Source of the DNA: an uncultured Bacilli bacterium
GTDB taxonomy: Bacteria; Bacillota_I; Bacilli_A; RF39; UBA660
Reading direction: 5' to 3'
Assembly (NCBI GenBank): GCA_947624565.1
Contig: CANQKX010000002.1
Span: forward strand, 2,059-66,058
DNA length: 64,000 bases
Part shown: piece by piece, positions 32,204 through 54,726 of the stretch
Numbering within the stretch: position 1 is the stretch's first letter
How the letters are laid out: each line of letters opens with the position of its first letter
The notes under the pieces: model-generated
What the model saw: only the letters and a program-made list of their open reading frames with translations
Told to the model about the DNA's origin: nothing
The model's database searches: none
Translations under genes and position numbers: made by a program

Positions 32204-32213
32204 GGAGGATATT

Positions 32214-32471: not shown

Positions 32472-32502
32472 TACAAGTTAAATATATATAAGAGGTGTAA
32501 AT

Positions 32503-32994: not shown

Positions 32995-33003
32995 GGTGAA
33001 ATA

Positions 33004-35067: not shown

Positions 35068-35079
35068 CAAGGTGAGATA

Positions 35080-35910
35080 ATGAAGAAAACTAAAGATAAA
35101 TTAAAAGTAAAAATAAAAAATATAATTGATTTATCAAGAAAGCCAGTTATGTCAGTTTTACCTGGACAATTGTCTTTCTTTTTGCTGTTATCTTTAATAC
35201 CAGTTATGTTAATTATAGGAGTTATAACTTCATTTTTATCAATGTCGTCAAATTCAATAATTGATTTTTTTAAAAATGGTTTTCCAGCAGGAACAGGGGA
35301 TTTTTTAATTCCACTAATAAATGGAAATGGCAGAGGTTTTGATTATACAATTATATTTCTAATAGTATCAGCCTTATTACTTGTTTCAAAAGGAACTAGA
35401 TCTCTAATGAGAGTAGCATCTATAATTTATAACGTAAAAGATAATAATACAATAAAAGAAATAATAAAATCATTTATCTTAGCAATAATACTTACACTTC
35501 TAATTTCATTTATAATAATAATACCAGTGCTTGGTGGAAGATTATTATCAATATTACATAATTTTAAATTAATTTCTAATTTAACAGATCAGATAATATT
35601 AATTTATAATATATTAAAATGGCCAATATCAATATTTATTATTTTTATAAATTTAAAACTAATTTATATTATTTCACCAAATAAGAAAATATCCCCAAAA
35701 TCAGTAAATACTGGTGCTTTATTCACAACAATTTTATGGACAATATCAACTTATATATATTCGTTTTATATAACTCACTTTTCAAATTATAATTTATTTT
35801 ATGGTAGTGCATCAAATATTATAATTTTAATGCTGTGGATATATATAATTAGTTATATTTTTGTACTTGGTATGAGTATAAATGCAAATTCTACAGATTC
35901 TACATATTAA
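35080..35910 (+). CDS. YihY/BrkB family membrane protein
   Basis: Six TM segments with a YihY-like N-terminus (LSFFLLLSLIPV). Confidence 0.55.
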   Translation: MKKTKDKLKVKIKNIIDLSRKPVMSVLPGQLSFFLLLSLIPVMLIIGVITSFLSMSSNSIIDFFKNGFPAGTGDFLIPLINGNGRGFDYTIIFLIVSALLLVSKGTRSLMRVASIIYNVKDNNTIKEIIKSFILAIILTLLISFIIIIPVLGGRLLSILHNFKLISNLTDQIILIYNILKWPISIFIIFINLKLIYIISPNKKISPKSVNTGALFTTILWTISTYIYSFYITHFSNYNLFYGSASNIIILMLWIYIISYIFVLGMSINANSTDSTY

Positions 35911-35988
35911 TTTTACATATAAGATAAAAAACTATATTAAAATAATAAAAAAAATGATATAATTTATTTGTTATGGAGGTAATAAATT

Positions 35989-38019
35989 GTGAAAGAAAAA
36001 ATAAAAAAATACATAAATAAAGCAAAAGAATTTGATTATAAAGAATATGCAAAAACAAATAAGTTATTTATTACATTTGTAATAACATCTTTAATAAATG
36101 GGATGTTACTTAGATTTTTAACTGTACATAATTATTTTGCGATTAAACCTATACTTGCTGATTTAGCTTTAATATTAATTTTTGCATCTTTTGTTTATTT
36201 ATTTAAACCTAGAAATAGATTTAAATATTTGCTTATTATATCAGTTTTATTTACAGCAATATGTGTAATTAATTCTTTATATTACACATATTATATGTCA
36301 TTTGCATCATTTTCATTAATTGCGGTTTCATTAACCGTTGTTGATGTTGGAGATGCAGTTGTAAAAAATGTATTACAAATAAAAGACTTTATATTTTTAT
36401 GGCAGCCAATTGCACTAATAATCGTCCATAGTATGTTAAAGAAAAAAGATCATTATAATCTGGTTGCTAAAAAAGAAAATAAGAAGAAAAGATTTACAGG
36501 TACATTAATATCTGGTTTAGTGGTTTATGCATTGTTTTTTGCGACAGTTACATCTACAGAATATAGTAGGTTAAGTAAACAATGGAATAGAGAATTTTTA
36601 GTTACAAAATTTGGTGTATATACATACCAATTAAATGATTTATTTAAGAGTTTAGATGCTAAATTTAATACTTTATTTGGTTATGATAATGCTGCTAAAG
36701 ATTTTAGAGAATTTTATTCAGAAAAAAAACCATCTCAGGAAAATGAATATACAGGAATATTTAAAGATAAGAATGTTATAGTTATTCATGCAGAAAGCAT
36801 ACAAAATGTAGCACTTAATACATCATTTAATGGTAATGAGGTTACACCTAATCTTAATAGATTGAAAAATGAAGGAATGTACTTTAGCAATTATTATGCT
36901 CAAGCCAGCAGTGGTACAAGCAGTGATTCTGAGTTTACATTTTCTACATCTCTTTTACCAGTAACAAATGGTGCAGTTGCAATAAGTTATTGGAATAGAG
37001 AATATGAAACATTACAAAAATTGCTTAAAAATGCAGGATATAGAACTATTAGTATGCATGCAAATACAGGAAGTTTTTGGAATAGAATAAATTTTCATAA
37101 TAGTTTAGGTTATGATAAATTTTATAGTAAAGTAGATTATGAAATAGATGAAGAAATTGGATTAGGATTATCTGACAAGTCATTCTTTAGACAATCAGTT
37201 CAAAAATTAAAAAAAGAATATGAAGAAAATGGTAAATTTTATGCAACTTTAATAATGCTTTCTAATCATACTCCATTTGATGATTTAGATAAATATGGAG
37301 AATTTGATACAGACATTAAAGAAGAAGTAAAAACTATAAATGAAAATGGTGAAGAAGTAATACAAGAAGTATCTTATCCATATATGGAGGGAACGAAACT
37401 AGGCAATTATTTTAAATCTGTACATTATGCTGATAGTGCTCTTGGAGATTTAGTTAATGATTTAGATGCAAATGGTCTACTTGATAATACAGTGCTTGTA
37501 ATATATGGGGATCATGATGCAAAATTAGCAAAAAGCGAGTATGTAAGAATGTATAATTATGATAAACAGACAGATGATGTATTAGATAAAGACGATGAGA
37601 ATTATGTTAATATAGATTATTATTGGTATGAATTAAATAGATCAGTTCCATTTATTATTTGGACTAAAGATAAACAATATTCTAAAAAAATAGATACAGC
37701 TATGGGAATGTATGATGCAATGCCAACTCTTGCTAATATGTTAGGAGTAAAACCTACATATAATATTGGTAATGATATAATGAATTTAAAAGATAATATA
37801 GTTGTTTTTCCAAATGGTAACTGGCTTACTAATAACATATATTATAATAGTCAAAAAGATCAATATAAGATACTAAATACAGATTATATAGTAGATAAAG
37901 AGGAAATTTCAAAAAATAATGATTATACTTCAAAAAGACTTGATATATCAAATGATATAATTTTATATGATCTTATAAAAAATGAAAATGATAGATTACA
38001 AAGAGTAGAGGGAAATTAA
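35989..38019 (+). CDS. LtaS-family (lipoteichoic acid synthase-like) sulfatase-domain membrane protein
   Basis: Five N-terminal TM helices followed by an extracellular alkaline-phosphatase-superfamily domain (HAESIQNV...SSGTSSDSEF...GDHD). GTG start with a ggaggt RBS. Confidence 0.7.
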   Translation: MKEKIKKYINKAKEFDYKEYAKTNKLFITFVITSLINGMLLRFLTVHNYFAIKPILADLALILIFASFVYLFKPRNRFKYLLIISVLFTAICVINSLYYTYYMSFASFSLIAVSLTVVDVGDAVVKNVLQIKDFIFLWQPIALIIVHSMLKKKDHYNLVAKKENKKKRFTGTLISGLVVYALFFATVTSTEYSRLSKQWNREFLVTKFGVYTYQLNDLFKSLDAKFNTLFGYDNAAKDFREFYSEKKPSQENEYTGIFKDKNVIVIHAESIQNVALNTSFNGNEVTPNLNRLKNEGMYFSNYYAQASSGTSSDSEFTFSTSLLPVTNGAVAISYWNREYETLQKLLKNAGYRTISMHANTGSFWNRINFHNSLGYDKFYSKVDYEIDEEIGLGLSDKSFFRQSVQKLKKEYEENGKFYATLIMLSNHTPFDDLDKYGEFDTDIKEEVKTINENGEEVIQEVSYPYMEGTKLGNYFKSVHYADSALGDLVNDLDANGLLDNTVLVIYGDHDAKLAKSEYVRMYNYDKQTDDVLDKDDENYVNIDYYWYELNRSVPFIIWTKDKQYSKKIDTAMGMYDAMPTLANMLGVKPTYNIGNDIMNLKDNIVVFPNGNWLTNNIYYNSQKDQYKILNTDYIVDKEEISKNNDYTSKRLDISNDIILYDLIKNENDRLQRVEGN

Positions 38020-38020
38020 T

Positions 38021-38671
38021 ATGAAAAAAAAGAATAGTAATAATAAAAAAAGAAAATTAATATTATTTATAGTTATTGTATTAATTGCATTGGGGTTAAT
38101 ATTTATTGCATTAAATGTTACAAAAAAAGATGATGATAAAGGTGGAAAAAAAGTAGTAGATGAAATAAAAAAATTTGATTATACAGTTTCAAAAACAGAT
38201 ACAAAGTTATTTAAAGATACATTTAAAGAGTTAAAAACTGAATTAACTAAAAAAGAAGTTGATAGAAAAAAATATGCAGAACTTGTTGGTAAGTTATTTA
38301 TAATTGATTTTTATACCTTATCAAATAAATCTAATGTAAATGATGTAGGGGCAGTTCAATTTGTATATTCAAGTTTTAAAGCAGATTTTGTTGATTATGC
38401 AAGAAAAGGTATATACAAACAAGTACAAAGTAATTTAGATAACAATAGAAATCAAAGTTTACCTGAAGTATCATCAGTTACGATTGAAAGTATAGAAGAG
38501 GTAGTTCCATCTTCAATTATTGAACATGAAAATTTTAAAAATGTTACTGAAGCAAATTCGTATGAAATAAATATAAATTGGACATATAAAGATAATAACG
38601 ATTTTCAAACATCTGCAACTATGTTAGTAGTACCTGATGGAGATAAATTATCAGTTGCTAAGTTAGAATAG
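38021..38671 (+). CDS. membrane-anchored hypothetical protein coupled to the LtaS-like gene
   Basis: The ATG lies 2 nt after the upstream stop (taatatg); N-terminal TM. Confidence 0.45.
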   Translation: MKKKNSNNKKRKLILFIVIVLIALGLIFIALNVTKKDDDKGGKKVVDEIKKFDYTVSKTDTKLFKDTFKELKTELTKKEVDRKKYAELVGKLFIIDFYTLSNKSNVNDVGAVQFVYSSFKADFVDYARKGIYKQVQSNLDNNRNQSLPEVSSVTIESIEEVVPSSIIEHENFKNVTEANSYEININWTYKDNNDFQTSATMLVVPDGDKLSVAKLE

Positions 38672-38677
38672 TAGAAT

Positions 38678-38708
38678 TCACGTTTATTAATTAATAAACG
38701 TGATTTTT
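38678..38708. terminator. perfect palindrome hairpin plus T-run (terminator for 38021..38671)
   Basis: tcacgtttattaa/ttaataaacgtga followed by TTTTT. Confidence 0.55.
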
Positions 38709-38730
38709 ATATACATAAATTTATGTATAT

Positions 38731-38760
38731 AAAAAGAACTAGGAAAACCTAGTTCTTTTT
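38731..38760. terminator. bidirectional terminator, A-run/hairpin/T-run, serving the convergent LCP gene
   Basis: aaaa-agaactagg-aaaa-cctagttct-ttttt. Confidence 0.55.
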
Positions 38761-38764
38761 GTTG

Positions 38765-40894
38765 CTATTCATTAGGAAGTATATCATCTAATACATTATC
38801 ATCTTTATTATCATTATTATTACTATCTTCAGTATATTCAGTAGTACATGTTTGTTCAGAATATTTTGTAGGATTTTTATCACCATTTTTATCGTAGTAA
38901 TAATAATAATTTCCTTCTTTGACGCATTTAGGATATTCATTATTATTATCATCTTCGTTGTTATCAGAATCCTCGTCGTTTTTATTATCGTCTTTTTTAC
39001 TATCATTATTTTTGTCATTATCGTCTTTTTGTACATTAGCCACTGTAACAACTAACGCTTCAGTCATATCATCAATATTATAATTAGAAGGTAATGATTG
39101 GGATATAACTTGATCTTGAGTATATCCAGATGTACTAGATACATTTTCTTCTTTAAAGGTTACATTAATACCTCTTGATATACAATAACTACTTACATAA
39201 TCTCTAGTTTTTCCAGTAAAGTCTGGTAGTAAAGTAACAGATGCACCTGCAGTTTCATTTTTACCTATAATTTCTTCTTCGAAAGGAATATCAATTGAGA
39301 AACTAAATGATTTATCGTATTTTTCTTCACTTAATCCTAAATTTATTTTCATTGCTTTTATAATTGCATTTAATGATGATTTTGATGGAACAAAGTTATA
39401 AAGAACTAATCCAGAACGTTTGTCATAAATCATCGCAGAAGATCCGTTTAAATATGTTTTTTGTATATTTATAATATTATTTTTATCACTCAATGAACTT
39501 GAATTTAATAATATTTTCTTAAATACATTATAGAAATCTAATATTTGGTTTCTTGTAAGATTTGTATCTAAACTTATACTTATTGTATCTAAAACTTCAT
39601 ATAACTTATTTATACTTTTTATTTCTTTGGCTTTATTTATAATTGCATTTACAACTAGTTGTTGATTTTGACCTCTTACAAAATCATTTCTAGTTCCTTG
39701 ATTCCAATATGTTCCACACCAGCTAATAGTTTTTCTATTTCTTGATAATGCAAGTGCTTGTCGTCCATCTAAATGTTGCCATCCTTTATCAACATAAATT
39801 GTATCTATGAAATTTCTATTTTCACTACTTTCACAAAAAGCATATGGAACATCAACATCTATTCCACCAAGAGTATCTACAAGTTTTATTAATCCTTTGA
39901 AATTTATTTTTGCATAATAGTCAATATCTATTCCTGTAAAATTTTCAACAGTAGTAATCATACATGAATCTCCACCAGAAGCAGCATGTGTTATCTTATT
40001 TTTATAATTTCCAAAACATGATATTGGTACATAAGTATCTCTTGGAATGCTAAATACAGTTGCATTTAATGTAGTAGGGTTAAATGTTATTAACATTATT
40101 GTATCACCAAGTCCACTTGTTTTAGAAATGTCTTCTGTCTCAGAATCTACTCCTAGTAATAATATAGTAAATGGTTCAGTAACACTTTTAGAACTACTTT
40201 TAGTTGAGGAATCAACTTGTTTTTTCATTAATTTAGAATAACTATCAAGTTCTATTACATCATCTTTTATATTTGTGAATTTTTCCATTGATGAAAATTT
40301 ATCAACATAACTACCAGATACGAAAGCTCCATCTACTTTTTCATCATATAAATCGCTAAGCATCGATACATAATCATCATACTCAATCAAGTTTTCATTA
40401 TTAATTTTGTTATTTTTAATTATTTGCTGTGCTAATACATAACCTTCTGTATCATTCTTATCACTAATAATAGCAATTTGTCCTTCTTTAACTTTTTTTA
40501 TGGTATCATAATTACCACTTTTTAATGCTATTAGTGAAGAAGTATATGTAATTTTATTTTTATTCATCTTATCAATTACATTTACACCTTTACCTATTAC
40601 AGAGCTTATTAGAAATTCTACAGCGCCAAATATTATTAATAAAAGCATAAATAGTAAATATTTACTAACTTTTTTTCCTTTTTTAAACCTTATATACTTC
40701 AGTATTATATATATACATAATATAGCAAGAACACCCATTAATATATATCTAATTAGATTTTCAATACCACTTAATTTAGATATATTATATATAAGATATA
40801 TAGTAGTACAAGTAAACATACCAACTAATATACCTAATAATAGATTTAAAAATTTATTACTTTTTACACCTTTTTCTTTTTTATTCTTTTTCAT
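38765..40894 (-). CDS. LytR-CpsA-Psr (LCP) family cell-envelope phosphotransferase with an acidic low-complexity C-terminal tail
   Basis: N-terminal TM segments and an LCP core (TILLLGVDS...ITHAASGG...). The C-terminal approximately 100 aa are D/N/K-rich and include a poly-Tyr stretch (EGNYYYYYDKNGD). Confidence 0.7.
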   Translation of the reverse strand: MKKNKKEKGVKSNKFLNLLLGILVGMFTCTTIYLIYNISKLSGIENLIRYILMGVLAILCIYIILKYIRFKKGKKVSKYLLFMLLLIIFGAVEFLISSVIGKGVNVIDKMNKNKITYTSSLIALKSGNYDTIKKVKEGQIAIISDKNDTEGYVLAQQIIKNNKINNENLIEYDDYVSMLSDLYDEKVDGAFVSGSYVDKFSSMEKFTNIKDDVIELDSYSKLMKKQVDSSTKSSSKSVTEPFTILLLGVDSETEDISKTSGLGDTIMLITFNPTTLNATVFSIPRDTYVPISCFGNYKNKITHAASGGDSCMITTVENFTGIDIDYYAKINFKGLIKLVDTLGGIDVDVPYAFCESSENRNFIDTIYVDKGWQHLDGRQALALSRNRKTISWCGTYWNQGTRNDFVRGQNQQLVVNAIINKAKEIKSINKLYEVLDTISISLDTNLTRNQILDFYNVFKKILLNSSSLSDKNNIINIQKTYLNGSSAMIYDKRSGLVLYNFVPSKSSLNAIIKAMKINLGLSEEKYDKSFSFSIDIPFEEEIIGKNETAGASVTLLPDFTGKTRDYVSSYCISRGINVTFKEENVSSTSGYTQDQVISQSLPSNYNIDDMTEALVVTVANVQKDDNDKNNDSKKDDNKNDEDSDNNEDDNNNEYPKCVKEGNYYYYYDKNGDKNPTKYSEQTCTTEYTEDSNNNDNKDDNVLDDILPNE

Positions 40895-41187
40895 TTTAAT
40901 CCTCCTAATGTTACAAAAATATTATAAACCTATATAGTACTAATTACAATTTAAAAAAATATTTCAATGTAAATAAATAGTTAATAAAAGTTTATAACAT
41001 TTATTAGTTTTCTATTTATTTTATAATTTCAACTATACTAATTAATTATACCATATATTGATAAATAATTGTATAAAAAAATTCTTAACATTGATTTGAC
41101 AAAATAAAACATTTTTTTTAATATTGTATTTAATGATATAAGTTATTTTGATATAATTGTTATATGAAAATATAAGGAGGAAAAAAT

Positions 41188-43182
41188 ATGAAAAATAAGT
41201 ATTTTAATTTATCAATTTTAATTAGTATATTTTTAATTATTTTTTCTTCTTTCTTTAAAGTAAAAGATGTATATGCCAATACAACATTTACTACATGTAC
41301 TTTAACAGAAGGATCATATTTAAGATCAACTCCCGGAGGAGATAAACTTACTGATGTTGATAATAGTACATTTTTGCTATACGAACCAAAAAGATTAGAA
41401 GTAATTGAAACTAAAACTGTTAATGGAAAAGAATATAAAAAATTAAAAACTAATTATTATAGTAATAATTATGAAGGTTGGATATGGAGTGGATATTTAA
41501 AAGATTTTAGAACATATACAACTGATGATAACTATGCAAATAGTTTAAAAAATAAGGGATTTCCAGATAGTTATATATTACCTTTAACAAAACTTCATGC
41601 AGTATATCCAAATTGGAATTTTGAAGTATCAAAATATGGATCAGGTTTGAATTGGAATGATGTAATAAATGGAGAATATAATCCTGTTTATAAAAATTTG
41701 ATAAGTGGACCAAATGAATCTCTTAGATCGACAGATGGCGCAGCATATAATGCGGGAACTTATACACAATTTGAACCAGGATGGTATGCACCAAGTAAAC
41801 AAACAATAGCCTTTTATATGGATCCAAGAAATTGGCTTTATGATAATACTATATTTATGTTTGAACAATTATCATATAATTCAAAACTTCATACATCAAA
41901 TGCAGTACAACAAATATTAAATGGAACATTTATGCAAGGTTCTTATGAATATAATGGTAAACAATGGACTTATGCCGATACTTTTATTGAAGCAGGAAAA
42001 CAAAGAAATGTAAGCCCAATACAACTTGCAAGTCGTGTAATTCAAGAACAAGGAACAACAGGTAGTGCAACTATAAATATGCAAAGTGATGGTAAAACAT
42101 ACTATAATCATTTTAATATAAATGCATATGGTAGTGATACTGCAACAATTGTTTCAAATGCACTAAAAACTGCAAAAGCACAAGGATGGACGAATCCATA
42201 TTTATCAATATTAGGTGGATCTGCTACAATATCTAATGGATATATAAATATAGGACAAGATACTATATATTATCAAAAATTTAATACAATAAATAGTAGT
42301 GATGTATCATTATATTTACATCAATATATGGCAAATGTTAGAGTATTACCATCAGAAGCAAATACTACATATAATTCTTATTATAAAACTGGATTAATAA
42401 ATAGTTCGTTTACTTTTAAGATTCCAGTTTATAATAATATGCCTGATAAAACTACATTGTCAATAAATAATAATGCAGACAATACATTGAAATCATTATC
42501 AGTAAAAGAATGTTCATTAAATCCATCATTTAATTCAGCAGCAACAGATTATACATGTAATGTTTCAAATAATATTAATCAAGTAACTATTTCAGCAACT
42601 AAATCAAGTCAATATTCTTCATTAAAAGGCGATGGAGTAATAAAATTAAATAGTAGTAGTACTATTGCAAATATCGTAGTAACAGCTGCAAATGGAGAAG
42701 AAAAAATATATAAAATAACTATAAATAAGGTAGAACCAGGTAAAGAAAGTCCTGCTGATATAATTAGTTACTTAGGATATAACAATTCAAATAATGTTGT
42801 TACAGGAATATCATTAGGAACAAATAGAGCAAATATAATATCAAATGTAAAAAATAAATTTAATTTAGCATCAATTACAATAAAAGATAAAAATGGTAAT
42901 GCTAAAGAAGATGGTATAATATCAACAGCAGATCAAATAATTATTTCAATTAATGGTAAAACAACAACATTTACAGTTGCAATAAAAGGTGATGCAAATG
43001 GTGATGGAAAAATAAGTACAATAGATTATGCAAAGTCGAAAAATTATATTTTAGGTGTAAATAATAATTTATCAGGAATTTACTTTTCTTCCTTAGATAT
43101 TAATAGTGATGGAAAAATAAGTACAATAGATTATGCAAAAATAAAGAAATATATTTTAGGTGATACTTCAATAATAAAATAA
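41188..43182 (+). CDS. secreted multidomain protein: signal peptide, SH3b-like domain, putative glucosaminidase-like hydrolase region, cadherin-like beta-sandwich domain, and C-terminal type-I dockerin repeats
   Basis: Signal peptide; two dockerin Ca-binding repeats (DANGDGKISTIDYAKSKNYILG and DINSDGKISTIDYAKIKKYILG); a cadherin-like domain (NTLKSLSVKECSLNPSFNSAATDYTCNV). Confidence 0.6.
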   Translation: MKNKYFNLSILISIFLIIFSSFFKVKDVYANTTFTTCTLTEGSYLRSTPGGDKLTDVDNSTFLLYEPKRLEVIETKTVNGKEYKKLKTNYYSNNYEGWIWSGYLKDFRTYTTDDNYANSLKNKGFPDSYILPLTKLHAVYPNWNFEVSKYGSGLNWNDVINGEYNPVYKNLISGPNESLRSTDGAAYNAGTYTQFEPGWYAPSKQTIAFYMDPRNWLYDNTIFMFEQLSYNSKLHTSNAVQQILNGTFMQGSYEYNGKQWTYADTFIEAGKQRNVSPIQLASRVIQEQGTTGSATINMQSDGKTYYNHFNINAYGSDTATIVSNALKTAKAQGWTNPYLSILGGSATISNGYINIGQDTIYYQKFNTINSSDVSLYLHQYMANVRVLPSEANTTYNSYYKTGLINSSFTFKIPVYNNMPDKTTLSINNNADNTLKSLSVKECSLNPSFNSAATDYTCNVSNNINQVTISATKSSQYSSLKGDGVIKLNSSSTIANIVVTAANGEEKIYKITINKVEPGKESPADIISYLGYNNSNNVVTGISLGTNRANIISNVKNKFNLASITIKDKNGNAKEDGIISTADQIIISINGKTTTFTVAIKGDANGDGKISTIDYAKSKNYILGVNNNLSGIYFSSLDINSDGKISTIDYAKIKKYILGDTSIIK

Positions 43183-43197
43183 TAGGAGATGGTTTAT

Positions 43198-44655
43198 ATG
43201 AAAATTAAAAAATTTATACTTTTAACATTTATATTATACTTCATAATGCCAGTAAAATCTTATGCAATGACTGTTGGCAGTAGTTGCTCGGGAAGCAAGA
43301 CTGTTAATTTAGGTGATACCGTTTCAGTAACTTTTACAACTACTGCTTCATCACCTACAACTTTCACTTTAATGATTGATTATGATTCTTCAATATTAGG
43401 TATACCAACTTTGAGTGGTAATGGCGTAGAGGGGAATGCGTATAAGGCAACTAGTACTGGAAATGATTCAACAAGTAAACAATTTACATATACCTTTAAG
43501 ACTATAGCAACTGGTACAGCAAAAGTAAAAGCTAGCAGATTACAAGTTGCCGACTATGACATGGATCAAGATAAAGATGTATATAATTCATCATCTTGTA
43601 CTATTAATGTTGTAAAAGCATCAAGTTCATCCGGTGGTCAATCAAATAATGTAGTTAAAAATTCAGATAATAATTTAAAATCTTTAAGTGTTGATAAAGG
43701 AACATTAAGTCCTGAATTTAATAAAGATACTTTAGAATATTCTGTGGAACTTGCTAGTGATGTAACAAAAATAAATATTAATGCCGAAAGAAATGATTCA
43801 AAAGCATCAATAACAGGTATTGGCGAAGTACAGGTAAAAGAAGGACAAAATAAAATAGAAATAGTTGTAACTGCAGAAAATGGTAGTACTAAAACATATA
43901 TAATTAATGCATATGTTAAGGAAAAAGATCCAATAAATGTAAAAGTTGCAGGTGAAAAATATACTATAGTTAGAAATTTAAATGAATTAACAATTCCTGA
44001 TGATTTTAAAGAAGTAGATGTAAAAATAAATGATGAAATTATAAAAGGTTGTTATAATGAAGTAAGTAATATAACTTTAGTAGCATTAAAAGATTCTAAG
44101 GGTAATATAAATTTCTATATATATGATTTGAACAAATTGATATATACAAAATATAATTCAATTTCATCTTCAAATTTTAATATAGTAGTAATTGAACCAG
44201 ATAAAAATGTAAGAATACCACATAGATACTATAAGGTAGAATTTGATTATCAAGGTCAAACATTAAATGGTTATACACTTGGAGAAAATTCTGAGTTTAG
44301 AATAGTATATGGAATAAATACATCTACAGGAGAAAAAACATTTTATCAATATGATTTAGTAAATAATACTATACAAAGATTTTATAATGAACAAGTAGAA
44401 ATTTATGTAAATTTAGTAAAAAAATGTAAGTTAGCATTCATTATACTTGGATCATTTATAATAATATTAACAATTATTATAATTGTGTTATTATCAAAAA
44501 ATGTTAAATTTAAAAATAAATATTTAAGTAAAAAACTAAATGAAATTGATAGCCCAAAATATAATGAAGTAAAATATCAAGACTTAGAAGCAACAGGTAT
44601 AATTGAAACAAAAAAAACTAAAAAAAGTAAAGAAAAAACATTTTTAGATGAATAA
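43198..44655 (+). CDS. secreted, C-terminally membrane-anchored protein with a cadherin-like beta-sandwich domain
   Basis: Signal peptide, a cadherin-like domain (NNLKSLSVDKGTLSPEFNKDTLEYSVEL), and a C-terminal TM helix followed by a charged tail. Confidence 0.5.
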   Translation: MKIKKFILLTFILYFIMPVKSYAMTVGSSCSGSKTVNLGDTVSVTFTTTASSPTTFTLMIDYDSSILGIPTLSGNGVEGNAYKATSTGNDSTSKQFTYTFKTIATGTAKVKASRLQVADYDMDQDKDVYNSSSCTINVVKASSSSGGQSNNVVKNSDNNLKSLSVDKGTLSPEFNKDTLEYSVELASDVTKININAERNDSKASITGIGEVQVKEGQNKIEIVVTAENGSTKTYIINAYVKEKDPINVKVAGEKYTIVRNLNELTIPDDFKEVDVKINDEIIKGCYNEVSNITLVALKDSKGNINFYIYDLNKLIYTKYNSISSSNFNIVVIEPDKNVRIPHRYYKVEFDYQGQTLNGYTLGENSEFRIVYGINTSTGEKTFYQYDLVNNTIQRFYNEQVEIYVNLVKKCKLAFIILGSFIIILTIIIIVLLSKNVKFKNKYLSKKLNEIDSPKYNEVKYQDLEATGIIETKKTKKSKEKTFLDE

Positions 44656-44707
44656 AATGTTTTTTTTAGTCCATTATAATAATGACATGATAGTTTATAT
44701 GTTAAAA

Positions 44708-44741
44708 AAGAAAATACGCGGGATGCTATTTTCTTTTTTTA
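44708..44741 (+). terminator. rho-independent terminator
   Basis: aagaaaata...tattttctt stem followed by TTTTTTT. Confidence 0.55.
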
Positions 44742-44794
44742 TTGCAAAAATCATATAAATATTCTATAATTAATTTATGAGAGTAGGTAACTAG

Positions 44795-46177
44795 ATGAAG
44801 TATAATTTTTTAGCAAAAATCTTTATGTATTTAACAATATTTGTATTTTCAATTATTACAATTATTTTTTTATCACGAAATTATTTTATATTTGCTTTAC
44901 TAGCATATGTAATAGTTTTATTTATATCATTAAAAATGAATATAAAAAGATTCCCTTTATTTTTATTTATTATAAGTTTATTAATACGATTAGCAGTCAT
45001 TTTTATAGTAAATTTGCCTCAGCAAGCTGATATGTGGATTATGCTTGATGCTGCTAAAAAATTTGCTGTTAATGATTATTCTTTTAGCAATTTACCATAC
45101 TTTTCTACTTGGGGATATCAAACAGGATTTGTTATATATCAAGGTTTAATTTTAAAATTATTTAAAAATGAATTTGTTTTAAAAATACTTAATGCAGTAT
45201 TTACATCATTAACAACAGTTATAGTATATTTAATATCAAAAAAATTTACATCAGAGAAAAGTGCTAAAATTGTATCTTTATTATATATGATACTACCTAT
45301 GCCACTTTTATTAAATCCAATATTAAACAATCATATATTATCAGCATTACTTATGTATATTGGTATCATGTTTATAATAAAAGAAGAAAAAACTATAAAA
45401 GATTATATTTTTGCTTCTATATTAATTGCTATAGGTAATATTTTAAGACCAGAAGGTATAATAGTTGTTTTTTCATTGATTGTATTTGAAATAATAAAAA
45501 TAAATAAGAAAACAATTTTTGATATATCAAGAAAAATCTTTGTCTTTTTGGCTATATATTTATCTATTAATTCATTTTCTTCATTTTTAATTCAAAAAAC
45601 TGGTATAAATGAAGTGGGATTAAAAAATAATAATCCTTTATGGAAATTTGTACTTGGATTTAACCATGATACATGTGGATATTACAGTTATGATGATGAA
45701 AAATATTCTTATAGTGAAAAAGAAGAAATGGAAGTTATAAAAGATAGAGTATTAACATCTCCATCTAAATTAACTAAATTATTTACTTGTAAAATTGATT
45801 ATTTTTGGTTATTATCAAAACCATCTACAGGAGAATTTAATGCAAAAGAATTTAATTTTATGAATATAAAAATTAGTGCTGAAAAACTTAATGATATTGT
45901 AATAAATTTCAATACATATATTTATATAATAACACTATTCATGTGTTTTATTGGAGTTATATTTAATATAAATAAAATAATACAAAATAATTCAATATTT
46001 TTTGTTATAATGATGATAGTTACATTCTTTGTATATCTACTTATTGAACTTAGAGTTAGATACACATACTTTATTGTAATATCAATATTTATATTATCAT
46101 CATACGGATATGATTATGTTTTAAATTATATATCAAAATTAAAAAAACATAAAAATATATCTAAGAGTAAAATTTAA
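44795..46177 (+). CDS. GT-C fold polytopic membrane glycosyltransferase (ArnT/PMT-like)
   Basis: More than 10 TM segments and a periplasmic-loop acidic motif (QQADMWIMLDAAKKF) early in the protein, typical of GT39/GT83-like enzymes. Confidence 0.45.
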   Translation: MKYNFLAKIFMYLTIFVFSIITIIFLSRNYFIFALLAYVIVLFISLKMNIKRFPLFLFIISLLIRLAVIFIVNLPQQADMWIMLDAAKKFAVNDYSFSNLPYFSTWGYQTGFVIYQGLILKLFKNEFVLKILNAVFTSLTTVIVYLISKKFTSEKSAKIVSLLYMILPMPLLLNPILNNHILSALLMYIGIMFIIKEEKTIKDYIFASILIAIGNILRPEGIIVVFSLIVFEIIKINKKTIFDISRKIFVFLAIYLSINSFSSFLIQKTGINEVGLKNNNPLWKFVLGFNHDTCGYYSYDDEKYSYSEKEEMEVIKDRVLTSPSKLTKLFTCKIDYFWLLSKPSTGEFNAKEFNFMNIKISAEKLNDIVINFNTYIYIITLFMCFIGVIFNINKIIQNNSIFFVIMMIVTFFVYLLIELRVRYTYFIVISIFILSSYGYDYVLNYISKLKKHKNISKSKI

Positions 46178-46189
46178 AGGAGTGATAAA

Positions 46190-47464
46190 ATGATATCTAA
46201 ATTAAATAATATTATAGATAAAAATATAGTAAAAATATTTATGATATTTCTATTTATTCAACCATTTTTAGATGTTATCGCAGCTGTAATATTATATCAT
46301 TTTAAAATAAATTTTACTATAAGTTCTTTAATAAGATTTATATTTCTTATCTTTTGCATTTATTATTTGTTTTTTATAAAAAAACAAAAGGTGCCACTTC
46401 TAATAATACTTACTTATTCATTAATATTTATAGTGCAAAATATATATTATAAAGAAATTTCAAATATATATTTTGAAATAAAAATGTTACTTAATAACAT
46501 ATATTTACCTATTATACTATTATTTATGATTGGTATATTTAAAGATAATAAAATTAATATGAAAAATATCTATATAATATTTATAATATATATTCTATTT
46601 ATTTTCATTCCAGATATATTAAATATAGGATTTAATAGTTATGCATATTCAAAAGTAGGTAGTGCAGGATTATTTTTTTCTGCTAATGCAATAGGAAGTA
46701 TAATAAGTATGTTATTTCCAATTTTACTTGCTTATTTAGTAAGTAAAAAAAGAAAAATATTATTGCCTATATTTTTATTAATTTATTTCTTTATATTATT
46801 CAAAATGGGTACAAAAGCACCATTATTATGTTCTAGTATAGTTATAATATATTATTTTATATTATTATTTATTAATTTATTTAAAAAGAAAAAATATACA
46901 TATATATTTTTAAGTTTTATTATGATATTTGCATTTATTTTATTAATTGTAAAATTATTACCATATACTGCATTTTATAAGAATTTAGTAATTCATTTAA
47001 ATTTCTTAAATGTAAAAAAAGTATCTGATTTATTTAATTTTAAATATATAGATCACTTCTTATTTGGAAGTAGGTTATCATTTTTTAAAGATACATTTAA
47101 AATATATTTAAATTCTTCAATTTTTCAGAAACTTTTTGGAATAGGATATACATTAAATAATAATTATTTAAAGATTTCTGAAATGGATTATTTAGATACA
47201 TTTATTCATCAAGGTATAATAGGATTTATAGTGATTTATTTTACATATTTTAAATGTATTTTTCAAATATTCAAAAATTATATAAAGAACTTTACTAAGA
47301 ATTTTAAAAATATAAATATAACATCTATTATAATATCATTAGTAACATCAATATTATGTGCATTACTTACAGGCCATGTACTTTCAACACCATCTGTTTC
47401 AATTTTCGTTTCATTAATAATTATAATAATATATAATAAAAATATACAAGGAGAAATAAAATGA
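46190..47464 (+). CDS. O-antigen ligase/polymerase (Wzy-like) family membrane protein
   Basis: 424 aa with 10-12 TM segments and a larger loop toward the C-terminal third; located inside the polysaccharide locus. Confidence 0.45.
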
Positions 47465-48012
47465 GAAGATACAAAAAAGATCAATTAAAAAAAATTAGAA
47501 TATATTTAATACTAGATTCTATGAAAAGAACTAAATATATTATTAAACATGATATTTTTAAAGAAGTAGGAAAAAATTTTTTCTTTCAACCAAGAAAAAT
47601 ACCTGCTGATCCAAAACTTATTAAGTTTCATAATAATGTTGTTGTAACAAGTGGAGTATTATTTATAACACACGATGTTACTGATTTTATGCTTAATAAT
47701 AGAGAAAATATAGATCATTTTTATAAATATAATTCAGGATGCATAGAAGTTATGAATAATGTTTTTATAGGTAGTAATTCAATAATTCTTCCAAATATAA
47801 AAATAGGTAATAATGTAATAATAGGTGCTGGATCTGTAGTTACAAAAGATGTTCCTGATAATTCAGTAATCGCAGGTAATCCTGCTAAAATAATATGTTC
47901 TTTTGATGATTATATAAATAAAAGAAAACAAAAAGATGAAAATTTAGTTGAATATACAAATGAAGAAACAGAAAACAAATTATGGGAACAATTTTATAAA
48001 AATAAAGATTAG
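47461..48012 (+). CDS. hexapeptide-repeat (LbH) sugar O-acetyltransferase
   Basis: Hexapeptide repeats ([45 protein letters not shown]). Confidence 0.7.
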
Positions 48013-48021
48013 GTGATTAAA

Positions 48022-49122
48022 TTGAAAAAGAAAATAATATTTATGTCATATAGTTTATGTTTTGGTGGAATAGAAAAAGCACTTATTGAATTATTAAACA
48101 AATTAGATTATTCAAAATATGATGTAACTTTATTGCTTGAGAAAAAAGAAGGAGATTTTTTAGCAAAATTAAATAAAAATGTAAAAATATATAATTATGA
48201 TATATGTAATAGTAAAAATGTATTATATAGAAAATTTAGAAATGGTTTAAAAAGGTTAAAATATTTAATGTTTAATTATATGAAATATGACTTTGCATGT
48301 TGTTATGCTACTTATTCAAAACCATGTAGTTTACTATCTTTAAAATCATCAAAAAATACTGCATTATATGTTCATGGTGATTATGTTAATGAGTTTAATG
48401 ATAATAAAAAAACTATAGATTTTTTTCAAAATCAAGATATAGAAAAATTTAAAAAAGTTATATTTGTATCCAATGAATCAAGAGATAATTTGATAAAATT
48501 AATGCCACAAATAACTAATAAAAGTTATGTGATAAATAATATTATTAATAATAGTGATATAATTAAATTATCTAATGAAAAAATAAATGAAACAAAAAGA
48601 AAAGATACAATATTATTGTTATATGTAGGAAGATTAGATGAAAAAGTTAAAAGAATATCTAAAATGATTTTAACTACAGAATTTTTAAATAAAAATAATA
48701 TACATACTGATTTTTGGATTATAGGTGATGGAGAAGATTATCAATTATATGAAAAAATTATAAAAGAAAAAAAATTGCAGAATAATGTTAAATTATTAGG
48801 TAGTAAAATAAATCCATATCCATATATAAAATTATGTGATTATTTAGTTATTACATCTGATCATGAAGGATTTCCAGTAACTTGTTTAGAAGCAATGTGT
48901 TTAAATAAAAATATTATTTCTACTATTAGTGTTAGCGATGATGAAATTGATATAAAAGATTATGCCTATATAATTTCTAAAGATGTAGATAAAATGAAAA
49001 ATGAAGTATTAAAAATAGTAAACTCAAAAAATAAATTAAAAGAAGTAGACTTTAATACAATAAACAAAAAAAGAATAAAAAAACTTGAAGCAATGTTTGA
49101 AGGTGAATTTGATGAAGTTTAG
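48022..49122 (+). CDS. GT4-family glycosyltransferase
   Basis: C-terminal GT4 E-x7-E-like region (HEGFPVTCLEAM). TTG start after an aggtga RBS (the ORF is listed from a GTG at 48013). Confidence 0.6.
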   Translation: MKKKIIFMSYSLCFGGIEKALIELLNKLDYSKYDVTLLLEKKEGDFLAKLNKNVKIYNYDICNSKNVLYRKFRNGLKRLKYLMFNYMKYDFACCYATYSKPCSLLSLKSSKNTALYVHGDYVNEFNDNKKTIDFFQNQDIEKFKKVIFVSNESRDNLIKLMPQITNKSYVINNIINNSDIIKLSNEKINETKRKDTILLLYVGRLDEKVKRISKMILTTEFLNKNNIHTDFWIIGDGEDYQLYEKIIKEKKLQNNVKLLGSKINPYPYIKLCDYLVITSDHEGFPVTCLEAMCLNKNIISTISVSDDEIDIKDYAYIISKDVDKMKNEVLKIVNSKNKLKEVDFNTINKKRIKKLEAMFEGEFDEV

Positions 49123-50023
49123 TTTAATAATACCTGTTTATAATGTTGAAAAATATTTAGAAAAATGTTTAAAAAGTATTTTAGATAATACATATAAAAA
49201 TTATGAAGTAATTATTGTTAATGATGGATCTACTGATAATAGTGAAAAAATAATAAAAGAAAATTTAAATAAATTTGAAGATATAACTTATATAAAACAA
49301 AAAAATAAAGGACTTAGTAGTGCAAGAAATGAAGGAGTAAAAAAATCTAAAGGAGATTATATTTGCTTTATAGATTCAGATGATTATATTCAAAAAGATA
49401 TGCTTGAAGTATTAAATAATAATTTAAAAGATAATCCTGATATTTTAAGATTTCAACTAAGAGAAGTATATAATGATAAGAGTGTAGATATAAATGAAAT
49501 CTCGTTTAATACAACAAATTCAAATAATGCCTTTAGTAAAATAGTTAAATATAAATATATAGAAATGTCCCAATTATATATATATAAAGCATCTTTCTAT
49601 AAGGAAAATAATTTTTCTTTTAAAGAGGGTATTTATCATGAAGATTTTGCATTAATACCTATTATAATAGCTAGTTGTAAAAGTATAAAATCAATTGATT
49701 ATATTGGATACAACTATGTTATTAGAGATGGAAGTATAATGAGAAGTAATGATAAAAATAAAATTATAAAGAAAATGGATGATAGTTTACTAGCATTTAA
49801 TCAAGCTATACAGATATTAAATAAAATGGAAAATAAAGATGAATTTAAAAATTTTTATGCAAATAGTATATTAGATAAATATTACTCTTTGGATAAAAAT
49901 TCAAAGAAAGAGTATAAAGAAAGAATAAAAAAATTAAATGTATTTAGTTATATGTCAACTAATAATTTTAAAAGAAAAATAAAAAAAATAATATATAAAA
50001 TAAAGTTTGGAGTAGGAATATGA
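49112..50023 (+). CDS. GT2-family glycosyltransferase
   Basis: FSLIIPVYNVEKYLEKCLKSIL...VNDGSTD...DSDD. Confidence 0.75.
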   Translation: MKFSLIIPVYNVEKYLEKCLKSILDNTYKNYEVIIVNDGSTDNSEKIIKENLNKFEDITYIKQKNKGLSSARNEGVKKSKGDYICFIDSDDYIQKDMLEVLNNNLKDNPDILRFQLREVYNDKSVDINEISFNTTNSNNAFSKIVKYKYIEMSQLYIYKASFYKENNFSFKEGIYHEDFALIPIIIASCKSIKSIDYIGYNYVIRDGSIMRSNDKNKIIKKMDDSLLAFNQAIQILNKMENKDEFKNFYANSILDKYYSLDKNSKKEYKERIKKLNVFSYMSTNNFKRKIKKIIYKIKFGVGI

Positions 50024-50967: not shown

Positions 50968-51054
50968 TTTTAGTTATTAATTTAATATATTTTATATTGT
51001 TTGTATCTATATGATATGATATAATGATAGTAATTAAAGTAGAGGAGAAGTAAA

Positions 51055-52002: not shown

Positions 52003-52026
52003 TTCTCATATGAGAATTTTTTTTAT
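52002..52026 (+). terminator. rho-independent terminator
   Basis: attctcatatgagaat palindrome followed by TTTTTTTT. Confidence 0.55.
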
Positions 52027-52127
52027 TAATATAATAGTTTGTTACATTTTATAAAATGTGATATAATGTACATGTTGGTGTTACATCAATTTAAGTATTA
52101 TATTTTTTTAGGGGGAAAATACAAATA

Positions 52128-52829: not shown

Positions 52830-52845
52830 AAGGAGAATAAGTTGT

Positions 52846-54722: not shown

Positions 54723-54726
54723 AAAA

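What the first reader, a model, noticed from the sequence alone, without database searches (positions are those of the whole stretch)
41188..44655. Dockerin-bearing secreted hydrolase-like protein followed by a cadherin-like anchored paralog
The first protein has a signal peptide, an SH3b-like N-terminal domain, a putative glucosaminidase-like region, a cadherin-like beta-sandwich domain, and two canonical type-I dockerin calcium-binding repeats at the extreme C-terminus (DANGDGKISTIDYAK..., DINSDGKISTIDYAK...). The next gene, 7 nt downstream, shares the cadherin-like domain but ends in a TM anchor instead. A dockerin implies a cohesin-bearing partner elsewhere in the genome. The pair sits at the head of a cell-wall glycopolymer locus, so it may be a surface-displayed cell-wall-modifying complex.
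Basis: partly seen in the sequence, partly recalled or inferred. Interest (0 to 1): 0.6.

Follow-up and report, generated by a model that had tools for sequence, protein, structure and literature searches.

The report
Wall hydrolase docked to neighbouring membrane cohesin
A secreted cell-wall-cutting enzyme that ends in a dockerin is encoded right next to a membrane-anchored protein whose first domain is a hidden cohesin, so the two probably snap together to hold the enzyme at the cell surface; this minimal two-gene docking system is conserved in many uncultured gut Bacilli.

Summary
ORF A (41188-43182) has a signal peptide, a GH73-type peptidoglycan N-acetylglucosaminidase region with an invariant catalytic-position Glu287, a cadherin-like domain and a bona fide type I dockerin (Pfam 49.5 bits). 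ORF B shares only the cadherin-like domain and has one C-terminal membrane helix. Its real start is 43198.

In 44 related loci, an A homologue that ends in a strong dockerin match is followed directly by a B gene that opens with this domain. The two dockerin repeats change in concert between species, which is the signature of a dual-binding dockerin. An LCP gene is a conserved neighbour.

[quoted passage not shown] Binding itself is inferred, not shown. ORF B also has a confidently modelled domain with no solved structural relative, and a conserved cytoplasmic tail ending in KTFLDE.

The parts
41174..41180 (+). Ribosome-binding site AAGGAGG of ORF A
   Evidence: Read directly from the sequence. 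It lies 7 nt before the ATG at 41188.
41188..43182 (+). ORF A: secreted GH73-type peptidoglycan N-acetylglucosaminidase with a C-terminal dockerin (664 aa)
   Evidence: ORF. Domains. More than 100 full-length homologues share the same architecture.
41188..41277 (+). Signal peptide of A (aa 1-30, ending VYA)
   Evidence: Read directly: a basic N-terminus, a hydrophobic core and a small-x-small cleavage motif. This is an inference; no predictor was run.
41278..41547 (+). N-terminal SH3b-like domain of A (aa 31-120)
   Evidence: The window copy has no Pfam hit. SH3_3 hits 9 of 39 homologues. The domain HMM also matches the SH3b repeat region in L039 and L040.
41548..42477 (+). Catalytic region of A (aa 121-430), with the GH73 core at about aa 260-416 (41965-42435)
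   Evidence: PDB sequence search: SagB 6fxp and 6u0o at 2e-11, AtlE 4pi7 at 3e-10. Family profile: AtlE 5e-20, SagB 9e-20, C. perfringens N-acetylglucosaminidase 5wqw 7e-11. NCBIfam gives a partial SagB match at 8.6e-15.
42046..42048 (+). Codon of Glu287, the putative general acid of the GH73 domain (motif RVIQEQG)
   Evidence: Invariant in 39 homologues. It aligns with the Glu of the AtlE/SagB motif 'L(V/L)ETG'. That this Glu is catalytic in AtlE and SagB is from my own knowledge of GH73.
42478..42735 (+). Cadherin-like beta-sandwich domain of A
   Evidence: Pfam PF12733 at 31.4 bits. Present in 39 of 39 homologues.
42748..42978 (+). Small conserved domain between the cadherin-like domain and the dockerin (aa 521-597); family unknown
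   Evidence: Conserved block in alignment A5. Its HMM is detected in many related loci. No Pfam hit.
42982..43179 (+). Type I dockerin of A, with two 22-residue segments at 42991-43056 and 43096-43161
   Evidence: Pfam Dockerin_1 at 49.5 bits. Solved dockerins match: 2vn5_B at 3e-07 and many more with the profile. The calcium-loop pattern D1, N3, D5, D12 is present in both segments. The two segments evolve in concert.
43184..43188 (+). Ribosome-binding site AGGAG of ORF B, inside the 15-nt gap; no terminator between A and B
43198..44655 (+). ORF B: type I membrane protein made of cohesin, cadherin-like domain, unknown beta domain, TM helix and tail (485 aa)
   Evidence: The start is fixed by the RBS and by the database copy P0121.
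43198..43266 (+). Signal peptide of B (aa 1-23, ending SYA)
   Evidence: Read directly from the sequence. Inference.
43267..43623 (+). Divergent cohesin domain of B (aa 24-142), the proposed receptor for A's dockerin
43624..43662 (+). Ser-rich linker of B
   Evidence: Read directly from the sequence. Its length varies in alignment A1.
43663..43932 (+). Cadherin-like beta-sandwich domain of B
   Evidence: Pfam PF12733 at 38.7 bits. Present in 37 of 37 homologues. 35% identical to the domain in A.
43933..44427 (+). Membrane-proximal all-beta domain of B (aa 246-410), followed by a juxtamembrane helix; no known relative
44431..44493 (+). Single transmembrane helix of B (LAFIILGSFIIILTIIIIVLL)
   Evidence: Read directly from the sequence. 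Conserved in the alignment.
44494..44652 (+). Cytoplasmic Lys/Glu-rich tail of B with a YQDLE motif and the C-terminal KTFLDE (44635-44652)
   Evidence: 91 of 120 homologues end in the pattern K-[T/S]-F-[L/I]-[D/E/N] with an optional final D/E (KTFLDE in the window copy). 94 of 120 carry the Y-x-[D/E/N]-[L/I]-[D/E] motif.
38765..40894 (-). LCP-family glycopolymer transferase, a conserved neighbour of the pair (context)
   Evidence: Pfam LytR_cpsA_psr at 132.8 bits. An LCP homologue lies next to the pair in 36 related loci, mostly directly downstream of B.

Best explanation
ORF A and ORF B form a co-transcribed two-gene module. A is exported and cuts the glycan strands of peptidoglycan as a GH73-type N-acetylglucosaminidase. 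Its C-terminal type I dockerin binds, in a calcium-dependent way, to the divergent cohesin at the outer tip of B.

B is a single-pass membrane protein. Its cohesin is carried on a Ser-rich linker, a cadherin-like domain and a membrane-proximal beta domain. The result is a 1:1 non-covalent tether that holds the wall hydrolase at the outer face of the cytoplasmic membrane instead of letting it diffuse away. That is also where the neighbouring LCP, LtaS-like and glycopolymer enzymes act.

Shown by computation:
- the domain identities;
- the cohesin fold of a predicted model;
- strict gene adjacency across lineages;
- concerted evolution of the two dockerin segments.

Inferred:
- the physical binding;
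- calcium dependence;
- the enzyme's bond specificity;
- that its substrate is the cell's own wall;
- any role for B's unknown domain and its conserved cytoplasmic tail.
For: 1. The dockerin is genuine. Pfam scores 49.5 bits, both calcium loops are intact, and solved dockerins are hit.

3. Gene adjacency. An HMM scan covered the window and 66 related loci. In 44 loci a strong dockerin match on the A homologue is followed within 400 nt by a gene that opens with this domain. Seventeen Clostridia loci whose A homologue lacks a dockerin also lack B.

4. A and B are separated by 15 nt that contain B's RBS, with no terminator between them.

5. Positions 9, 10, 11, 13, 14, 15, 18 and 20 of the dockerin segments take 4-8 different residues among orthologues. 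Yet they are identical in the two segments of one protein in 87-98% of 115 proteins, against 24-49% expected. This is what is expected if both faces must fit the same co-evolving cohesin.

6. After removing the phylogenetic signal of two other domains, dockerin and cohesin-domain distances remain correlated (partial Mantel r 0.28, p 2e-4). Within B, the cohesin domain carries the columns with the highest mutual information with the dockerin specificity positions.

7. GH73 assignment: profile E 5e-20 to AtlE and 9e-20 to SagB, with the catalytic-position Glu invariant.

8. [quoted passage not shown] A Ruminococcus MAG locus (L032) has the same A architecture.
Against: - The window copy of the cohesin-like domain gets no Pfam Cohesin hit. 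It has only a weak BatD hit, and 8 of 37 homologues hit the unrelated Ig-like Inhibitor_I42.
- The domain has about 120 residues, against roughly 140 for classical cohesins.
- Two Lachnospiraceae loci (L039, L040) have a B-like gene with a cohesin-like N domain right after an A homologue that has no dockerin. The pairing can therefore exist without a dockerin on A.
- The co-evolution signal is modest and not unique. The two cadherin-like domains correlate equally well (r 0.30). A's own domains share as much mutual information with the dockerin as B's cohesin does.
- No complex could be modelled, and nothing has been tested experimentally.
- The rest of the genome could not be searched for other cohesins.
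Confidence: 0.7

Rival explanations
1. The dockerin of A binds a cohesin-bearing scaffold encoded elsewhere in the genome, perhaps as part of a larger multi-enzyme surface complex. B would then be only a co-located membrane protein with a shared cadherin-like domain.
For: The window copy of B has no Pfam Cohesin hit. Only 64 kb of the genome is available, so other cohesins cannot be excluded. Gut Firmicutes with many dockerins and a few cohesins do exist, such as the R. bromii amylosome (PMC4611034).
Against: B's N domain has a cohesin fold, and orthologues pass Pfam Cohesin. It follows the dockerin gene directly in 44 loci across divergent lineages. No second dockerin or cohesin-like domain appears in the window or in the +/-10 kb flanks of 66 loci. 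The published Ruminococcus precedent is likewise a single dockerin with a single cohesin.
Confidence: 0.1
2. B's N-terminal domain is a generic Ig-like sandwich that does not bind dockerins, and the dockerin is an orphan calcium-binding module. In this reading the dockerin stabilises the enzyme or binds a wall polymer. A and B co-operate in some other way, for instance through their cadherin-like domains, or B acts as a regulator or inhibitor.
For: Foldseek lists only generic Ig-like folds. Some homologues hit Inhibitor_I42 or BatD. In L039 and L040 the A-B pairing persists without any dockerin. The cadherin-like domains of A and B co-vary as strongly as dockerin and cohesin do.
Confidence: 0.12
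3. The docking is the same but the purpose differs. The tethered GH73 enzyme is displayed outward to attack the walls of other bacteria, or to harvest GlcNAc-containing glycans in the gut, rather than to remodel the producer's own wall.
For: The closest structural relatives of the cohesin are the C. perfringens NagJ and NanJ modules, which belong to outward-acting glycosidases. The cohesin sits at the membrane-distal tip of a long stalk. The organism is a gut bacterium (locus titles).
Against: The nearest characterised enzymes are housekeeping autolysins: AtlE, SagB and Atl. The conserved neighbours are wall-assembly genes, namely LCP and an LtaS-like gene. The module is single-copy and widely conserved, as expected of a housekeeping function.
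Confidence: 0.15

Closest known systems
GH73-associated single dockerin and single cohesin of 'Ruminococcus bicirculans' (Wegmann et al. 2014, as cited by Ze et al. 2015, PMC4611034)
   Same: This is a non-cellulolytic gut Firmicute with just one dockerin and one cohesin, tied to a GH73 enzyme. A Ruminococcus MAG locus (L032) encodes SH3b, a GH73-like region, a cadherin-like domain and a dockerin. That is the same architecture as ORF A, with 39% identity over the catalytic part.
   Different: It belongs to a different class (Clostridia, not Bacilli). In L032 the candidate partner is transcribed divergently, has a Thr-rich stalk and shows no detectable similarity to ORF B. I could not confirm its cohesin by Pfam or by PDB sequence search. 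The original paper was not available. No binding or function has been reported, as far as the text I could read says.
Non-cellulosomal cohesin-dockerin pairs of Clostridium perfringens glycosidases (NagJ/NanJ cohesins, NagH dockerin; PDB 2w1n, 2vo8, 2o4e, 2ozn)
   Different: There the cohesin sits on another secreted enzyme and builds enzyme-enzyme complexes aimed at host glycans (own knowledge). Here it sits on a non-catalytic membrane anchor and the cargo is a wall hydrolase. Sequence identity is only 10-12%.
Cellulosome anchoring by type I/II cohesin-dockerin (for example C. thermocellum OlpA/OlpC, C. acetobutylicum and C. cellulolyticum scaffoldins; PDB 3ul4, 4dh2, 6kgc, 2vn5)
   Same: Both use a type I dockerin with two symmetric calcium-binding segments that fit a beta-sandwich cohesin. 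6kgc_A is 27% identical to B's domain. 2vn5_B is the best dockerin match. In both cases an enzyme is attached to the cell surface.
   Different: There is no multi-cohesin scaffoldin, no CBM and no SLH or sortase anchor. I found one cohesin and one dockerin. The anchor is a C-terminal TM helix. The cargo is a peptidoglycan hydrolase, not a plant-polysaccharide enzyme.
Staphylococcus aureus SagB-SpdC peptidoglycan release complex (PDB 6u0o; bioRxiv 10.1101/2020.05.21.109470)
   Same: SagB is among the closest solved relatives of A's catalytic domain. In both systems a GH73 glucosaminidase is held at the membrane by a dedicated membrane-protein partner, so the logic of 'hydrolase plus membrane partner' is shared.
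   Different: SagB has its own N-terminal TM helix, and SpdC is a polytopic CAAX-protease-like protein (own knowledge). Here the enzyme is fully secreted and is tethered through cohesin-dockerin to a single-pass protein. B is not related to SpdC.
Ruminococcus bromii amylosome (PMC4611034)
   Same: It is another cohesin-dockerin assembly in a gut Firmicute that works outside cellulose degradation.
   Different: It is a multi-component system with 26 dockerin and 4 cohesin proteins that organises amylases. It is not a 1:1 operon-encoded pair for a wall hydrolase.

Membership tests
Type I dockerin (Pfam PF00404) | Score at or above the Pfam gathering threshold | tested here: met
   49.5 bits against 22.9, covering profile positions 1-57 of 57. 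39 of 39 homologues also hit.
Type I dockerin (Pfam PF00404) | Two tandem segments of about 22 residues, each an EF-hand-like 12-residue calcium loop (D1, N/D3, D5, D12) followed by a helix | tested here: met
   DANGDGKISTID and DINSDGKISTID have D1, N3, D5 and D12 in place. D1, D5 and D12 are invariant in 115 homologues.
Type I dockerin (Pfam PF00404) | Calcium-dependent binding to a cognate cohesin | not testable with these tools
   Only indirect support is available: concerted evolution of the putative recognition positions in both segments.
Cohesin (Pfam PF00963) | Score at or above the Pfam gathering threshold | tested here: not met
   The window copy gets no hit at E <= 0.1. Two orthologues do pass: P0226 at 28.7 bits and P0235 at 26.5 bits, against 24.1. 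3 of 37 homologues hit at E < 0.01.
Cohesin (Pfam PF00963) | Nine-stranded flattened beta-sandwich of cohesin topology | tested here: met
   [not shown]
Cohesin (Pfam PF00963) | Binds a dockerin | not testable with these tools
   Genomic adjacency to a dockerin gene in 44 loci and weak co-evolution are consistent with binding but are not proof.
GH73 peptidoglycan N-acetylglucosaminidase | Significant similarity to characterised GH73 catalytic domains | tested here: met
   AtlE 4pi7 at 5e-20, SagB 6u0o and 6fxp at 1e-19, Atl 6fxo at 6e-15 and C. perfringens 5wqw at 7e-11, all with the family profile. The single sequence gives 2e-11. Pfam PF01832 itself misses the window copy and hits only 2 of 39 homologues weakly.
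GH73 peptidoglycan N-acetylglucosaminidase | Conserved catalytic glutamate (general acid) | tested here: met
   Glu287 is invariant in 39 sequences. It aligns to the Glu of 'LVETG' in AtlE and 'LLETG' in SagB. Its catalytic role in those enzymes is taken from my own knowledge.
GH73 peptidoglycan N-acetylglucosaminidase | Conserved aromatic 'YATD'-type motif | tested here: inconclusive
   'QYMANV' aligns with 'QYASDI' and 'QYATDI'. The Tyr (Y380) is invariant, but the Asp is replaced by an invariant Asn383.
GH73 peptidoglycan N-acetylglucosaminidase | Cleaves GlcNAc-(beta-1,4)-MurNAc bonds in peptidoglycan | not testable with these tools
   Needs a zymogram or muropeptide analysis.
Cadherin-like beta sandwich (Pfam PF12733) | Score at or above the Pfam gathering threshold | tested here: met
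   A scores 31.4 bits and B 38.7 bits, against 24.2.
Bacterial SH3 (SH3b, Pfam PF08239) | Score at or above the Pfam gathering threshold in the N-terminal domain of A | tested here: inconclusive
   The window copy has no hit. 9 of 39 homologues hit at E < 0.01, best 4.3e-5. The aligned region in L039 and L032 homologues is a clear SH3_3 domain.
Cellulosome-type multi-enzyme complex | A scaffoldin with several cohesins, many dockerin-bearing enzymes and a substrate-binding module | tested here: not met
   One dockerin and one cohesin-like domain were found in the 64-kb window and in each related locus. The whole genome was not available.
SagB-SpdC type peptidoglycan release complex | A membrane-anchored GH73 enzyme paired with a polytopic CAAX-protease-like (Abi) partner | tested here: not met
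   A has a cleavable signal peptide and no TM anchor. B is single-pass and has no CAAX/Abi domain in Pfam. The resemblance is one of function only.

The most novel reading that the evidence does not exclude
B may be more than a passive anchor. It may be a transmembrane coupler.

Its membrane-proximal domain is modelled with confidence yet has no relative among solved structures. Its juxtamembrane helix and its conserved cytoplasmic tail (a YQDLE motif and a KTFLDE C-terminus in about three quarters of homologues) might transmit a cytoplasmic signal that positions or switches the docked hydrolase. The signal could come from the division or wall-synthesis machinery.

This would make B an FtsEX-like control system built on a cohesin-dockerin joint, and it would be characteristic of a large group of uncultured low-GC gut Bacilli.
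Probability: 0.2. Interest if true: 0.7.

Novelty: new variant of a known kind. Interest (0 to 1): 0.5.

Why it matters
Cohesin-dockerin pairs are best known as the glue of cellulosomes. Outside fibre degradation few cases are understood, and many 'orphan' dockerins have no known partner.

This locus offers a clean minimal case. One dockerin sits on a peptidoglycan hydrolase, and one cohesin, invisible to the standard Pfam model, sits on a membrane anchor. Both are in one operon and are conserved across many uncultured gut Bacilli.

If binding is confirmed:
- It shows how bacteria without an obvious wall-anchoring signal on the enzyme keep an autolysin at the membrane.
- It gives a set of naturally diversified, probably orthogonal cohesin-dockerin pairs for protein engineering.
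- It suggests that other orphan dockerins may have cryptic cohesins next door.
- It flags a new extracellular domain and a conserved cytoplasmic motif for study.

Tried and rejected
1. Modelling the complex. The second structure job was therefore spent on B's unknown domain.

3. Sequence profiles against the PDB. The full-length B profile hit antibody light chains through the signal peptide and the 'SVGDxVTITC'-like strand. The domain profile mixed antibodies with cohesins at E 0.01-0.2. This is suggestive only.

4. Exact look-up of ORF A in the contig index gave no record. The organism is therefore known only as a relative (71% identity for A) of 'Clostridium sp. CAG:433' and of Bacilli or 'Tenericutes' gut MAGs.

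5. The promoter and terminator scan was no better than shuffled sequence in this 23% GC DNA.

6. The R. bicirculans genome paper is not held. The precedent is cited second-hand from PMC4611034.

7. The candidate cohesin protein of the Ruminococcus locus L032 looks cohesin-like by eye but has no Pfam or PDB sequence hit. It is left unconfirmed.

8. Co-evolution tests (partial Mantel and mutual information) gave positive but non-specific signals. I do not treat them as proof.

9. I considered whether A and B are paralogues and rejected it. Only the 82-aa cadherin-like domain is shared.

10. I considered lipoprotein anchoring. Neither signal peptide has a lipobox before its Cys (read directly from the sequence).

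Full report
**What is there.** The stated interval holds two co-directional genes in very AT-rich DNA (about 23% G+C).

ORF A (41188..43182, 664 aa) is preceded by AAGGAGG. It opens with a typical Sec signal peptide ending VYA.
- Pfam gives Dockerin_1 at 49.5 bits (cut-off 22.9) over aa 600-657, and Cadherin-like at 31.4 bits over aa 434-514.
Each has the calcium-loop pattern D1, N3, D5, D12.

ORF B was listed from an ATG at 43189. However, the AGGAG at 43184-43188 lies 9 nt before the ATG at 43198, and the database copy P0121 (485 aa, 100% identical) starts there. B is therefore 43198..44655, 15 nt after A's stop, with no terminator-like site between them.
- B has a signal peptide ending SYA and a cadherin-like domain (38.7 bits).
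- It has one hydrophobic helix at aa 412-432, followed by a 53-residue Lys/Glu-rich tail.
- A and B share only the cadherin-like domain (35% over 82 residues). They are not paralogues in any wider sense.

**The enzyme.** Pfam's Glucosaminidase model does not hit the window copy. Solved GH73 enzymes do.
- With the single sequence, S. aureus SagB (6fxp, 6u0o) gives E 2e-11 and AtlE (4pi7) 3e-10.
- With a profile of 39 homologues, AtlE gives 5e-20, SagB 9e-20, Atl glucosaminidase 6e-15 and the C. perfringens N-acetylglucosaminidase 5wqw 7e-11.
- NCBIfam's SagB model matches in part.
- In these alignments Glu287 (RVIQEQG) pairs with the Glu of the LVETG/LLETG motif. From my knowledge of GH73, that Glu is the catalytic acid. 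Glu287 is invariant in the family.
- The 'YATD'-like motif is QYMANV, with the Tyr invariant and an invariant Asn in place of the Asp.

The window copy gets no SH3_3 hit, but 9 of 39 homologues do. The aligned region of more distant homologues is an unmistakable SH3_3 domain.

**The hidden cohesin.** In the homologue list of B, two distant members carried Pfam Cohesin, which pointed to B's own N-terminal domain (aa 24-142).
- Scanned one by one, 3 of 37 homologues hit Cohesin, 8 hit Inhibitor_I42 and 4 hit BatD. The sequence alone is therefore ambiguous.
- P0226 and P0235 do pass the curated Cohesin cut-off (28.7 and 26.5 bits against 24.1) at the equivalent position. The window domain aligns to that region of P0226 with E 2e-5.
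- An AlphaFold2 model built from 38 domain sequences is confident (pLDDT 89.8, pTM 0.82).
- Foldseek against the PDB found only poor Ig-like matches.
- The domain profile against PDB sequences also picks up cohesins (5g5d, 4u3s, 2y3n, 2jh2) at E 0.01-0.1, among antibody noise.
- Cys30 and Cys134, on the first and last strands, are both present or both absent in all 121 homologues (93 with both, 28 with neither, 0 with one). This suggests a disulfide.

**Are the two linked?** Related loci were fetched from one genome per species. They come from MAGs labelled Bacilli, 'Tenericutes', Erysipelotrichaceae or Clostridium sp. CAG:433, and from some Clostridia.

HMMs of each domain were run over all six-frame ORFs of the window and 66 loci.
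- In 44 loci, a strong dockerin match on the A homologue is followed within 400 nt (usually about 80-110 nt) by a gene that opens with the cohesin-like domain. Where the contig continues, the cadherin-like domain and the unknown domain follow.
- Seventeen Clostridia loci (Emergencia, Eubacterium nodatum, Ihubacter and others) have the catalytic and cadherin-like parts but no dockerin, and they have no B.
- No second dockerin or cohesin-like domain was seen in the window or in any flank.

There are exceptions.
- In two Lachnospiraceae MAGs (L039, L040), A stops right after its cadherin-like domain. A B-like protein with a cohesin-like N domain still follows.
- L044 has a dockerin but no recognisable B.
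- L032 (a Ruminococcus MAG) has SH3b, a GH73-like region, a cadherin-like domain and a dockerin. Next to it is a divergently transcribed, secreted, TM-anchored protein that looks cohesin-like by eye. I could not confirm it.

**Signature of a working dockerin.** I compared the two 22-residue segments in 115 homologues.
- Positions 9, 10, 11, 13, 14, 15, 18 and 20 take 4-8 different residues across species. They are the same in both segments of one protein in 87-98% of cases, against 24-49% expected from column composition.
- Positions 2, 4, 16 and 19 are free to differ.
- A protein's second segment is closer to its own first segment than to the median orthologue's first segment in 115 of 115 proteins.

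This position-selective concerted change is expected of a dual-binding-mode dockerin that tracks one co-evolving cohesin surface. It is hard to reconcile with an orphan calcium-binding module.

Direct co-evolution tests were positive but weak.
- After regressing out the distances of the catalytic domain and of B's C-terminal domain, dockerin and cohesin distances still correlate (partial Mantel r 0.28, p 2e-4). However, the two cadherin-like domains do so as well (r 0.30).
- Within B, the cohesin domain has the highest mutual information with the dockerin specificity positions, including the two top columns overall. A's own domains score as high on average.

The cytoplasmic tail is conserved. 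91 of 120 homologues end in the KTFLDE-type motif and 94 carry a YQDLE-like motif. Neither feature has a known function. Together they suggest that B does more than anchor, but that is speculation.

**Context.**
- Upstream lie an LtaS-like sulfatase-family protein and a divergent LCP transferase.
- Downstream lie a PMT_2 GT-C enzyme, an O-antigen-ligase-like protein, a hexapeptide acyltransferase, GT4 and GT2 transferases, SGNH and Acyl_transf_3 proteins, a TagGH-like ABC exporter, an epimerase/dehydratase, Alg14/Alg13-like proteins and GtrA.
- The LCP gene is the conserved neighbour. A homologue is adjacent in 36 loci, mostly directly after B, often with the LtaS-like gene next. This ties the pair to wall assembly rather than to nutrient foraging.

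**Mechanism proposed.** A is exported and binds B's distal cohesin through its dockerin, most likely with calcium and in either of two orientations. This keeps the glucosaminidase tethered to the outer face of the membrane on a flexible stalk. From there it can trim or release glycan strands where new wall and wall polymers are attached.

The logic resembles the S. aureus SagB-SpdC pair (bioRxiv 10.1101/2020.05.21.109470), but the parts are different.
- Shown by computation: the domain identities, the fold of the model, the adjacency and the concerted evolution.
- Inferred: binding, calcium dependence, bond specificity and the choice of the cell's own wall as substrate.

**Comparison with what is known.** Non-cellulosomal cohesin-dockerin pairs are established, for example in C. 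perfringens glycosidases and the R. bromii amylosome. Ze et al. [quoted passage not shown] 2014, which I could not read.

The kind is therefore known. What is new here:
- a distinct, very widespread partner family in Bacilli, with more than 1,200 sequence clusters hit by B;
- a cohesin that escapes Pfam;
- a strict operon arrangement;
- an extra domain of unknown fold and a conserved cytoplasmic motif.

I rate this a new variant of a known kind, of moderate interest (0.5). My confidence that B's N domain is the receptor of A's dockerin is about 0.7.

**What could not be done.** The rest of the genome was not available, and nothing here measures binding or activity.

Noticed in passing
window 61767..62364 (+): A full-length OLE (Ornate Large Extremophilic) RNA, Rfam RF01071, at 400 bits over model positions 1-616. 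The ORF at 62319..62918, which begins within its 3' end, has a weak CNNM/DUF21-type membrane domain (27.6 bits). From memory, that fits the usual OLE-associated membrane protein. It is notable in a 23% GC gut Bacilli genome.
   Followed up: partly
[not shown]
   Followed up: partly
window 44494..44652 (ORF B aa 433-485): The cytoplasmic tail has a conserved YQDLE-like motif and a C-terminal KTFLDE-type ending, present in 94 and 91 of 120 homologues. This hints at an intracellular binding partner.
   Followed up: partly
window 43285..43287 and 43597..43599 (Cys30 and Cys134 of ORF B): Two cysteines on the first and last strands of the cohesin-like domain are present together or absent together in all 121 homologues (93 with both, 28 with neither, 0 with one). 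This is probably a disulfide. Both columns are also among those that co-vary most with the dockerin.
   Followed up: partly
L039 8425..11762 and L040 9059..12661: In two Lachnospiraceae MAGs the hydrolase carries two or three SH3b repeats and has no dockerin. A B-like membrane protein with a cohesin-like N domain still follows within 3-34 nt. This is unexplained by the docking model.
   Followed up: partly
L032 7646..9220 (-) and 9671..11443 (+): A Ruminococcus MAG has an SH3b, GH73-like, cadherin-like and dockerin protein. Beside it is a divergent gene for a secreted, Thr-rich, TM-anchored protein whose N-terminal domain looks cohesin-like by eye. That protein has no Pfam or PDB sequence hit. 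It is probably the counterpart of the published R. bicirculans case.
   Followed up: partly
window 38765..40894 (-): The LCP transferase is unusually long (709 aa). It has a weak PASTA-like stretch (20.1 bits, below the 23.2 cut-off) and an Asp/Asn/Lys-rich low-complexity C-terminal tail that contains a YYYYY run.
   Followed up: no
window 42478..42735 and 43663..43932: The cadherin-like domains of A and B co-vary across species as strongly as dockerin and cohesin do (partial Mantel r 0.30, p 6e-4). This could reflect a second contact between the two proteins, or gene conversion.
   Followed up: no
window 27783..28895 (+): The TrmD-type tRNA (m1G) methyltransferase ORF is 370 aa, but the Pfam domain covers only aa 23-216. 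The remaining roughly 150 residues are unassigned.
   Followed up: no
window 1..64000: Nearly all ORFs of 100 aa or more are on the + strand. GC skew is positive throughout, except around 38-42 kb, where the one long minus-strand gene (LCP) lies. No tRNA genes were found.
   Followed up: no
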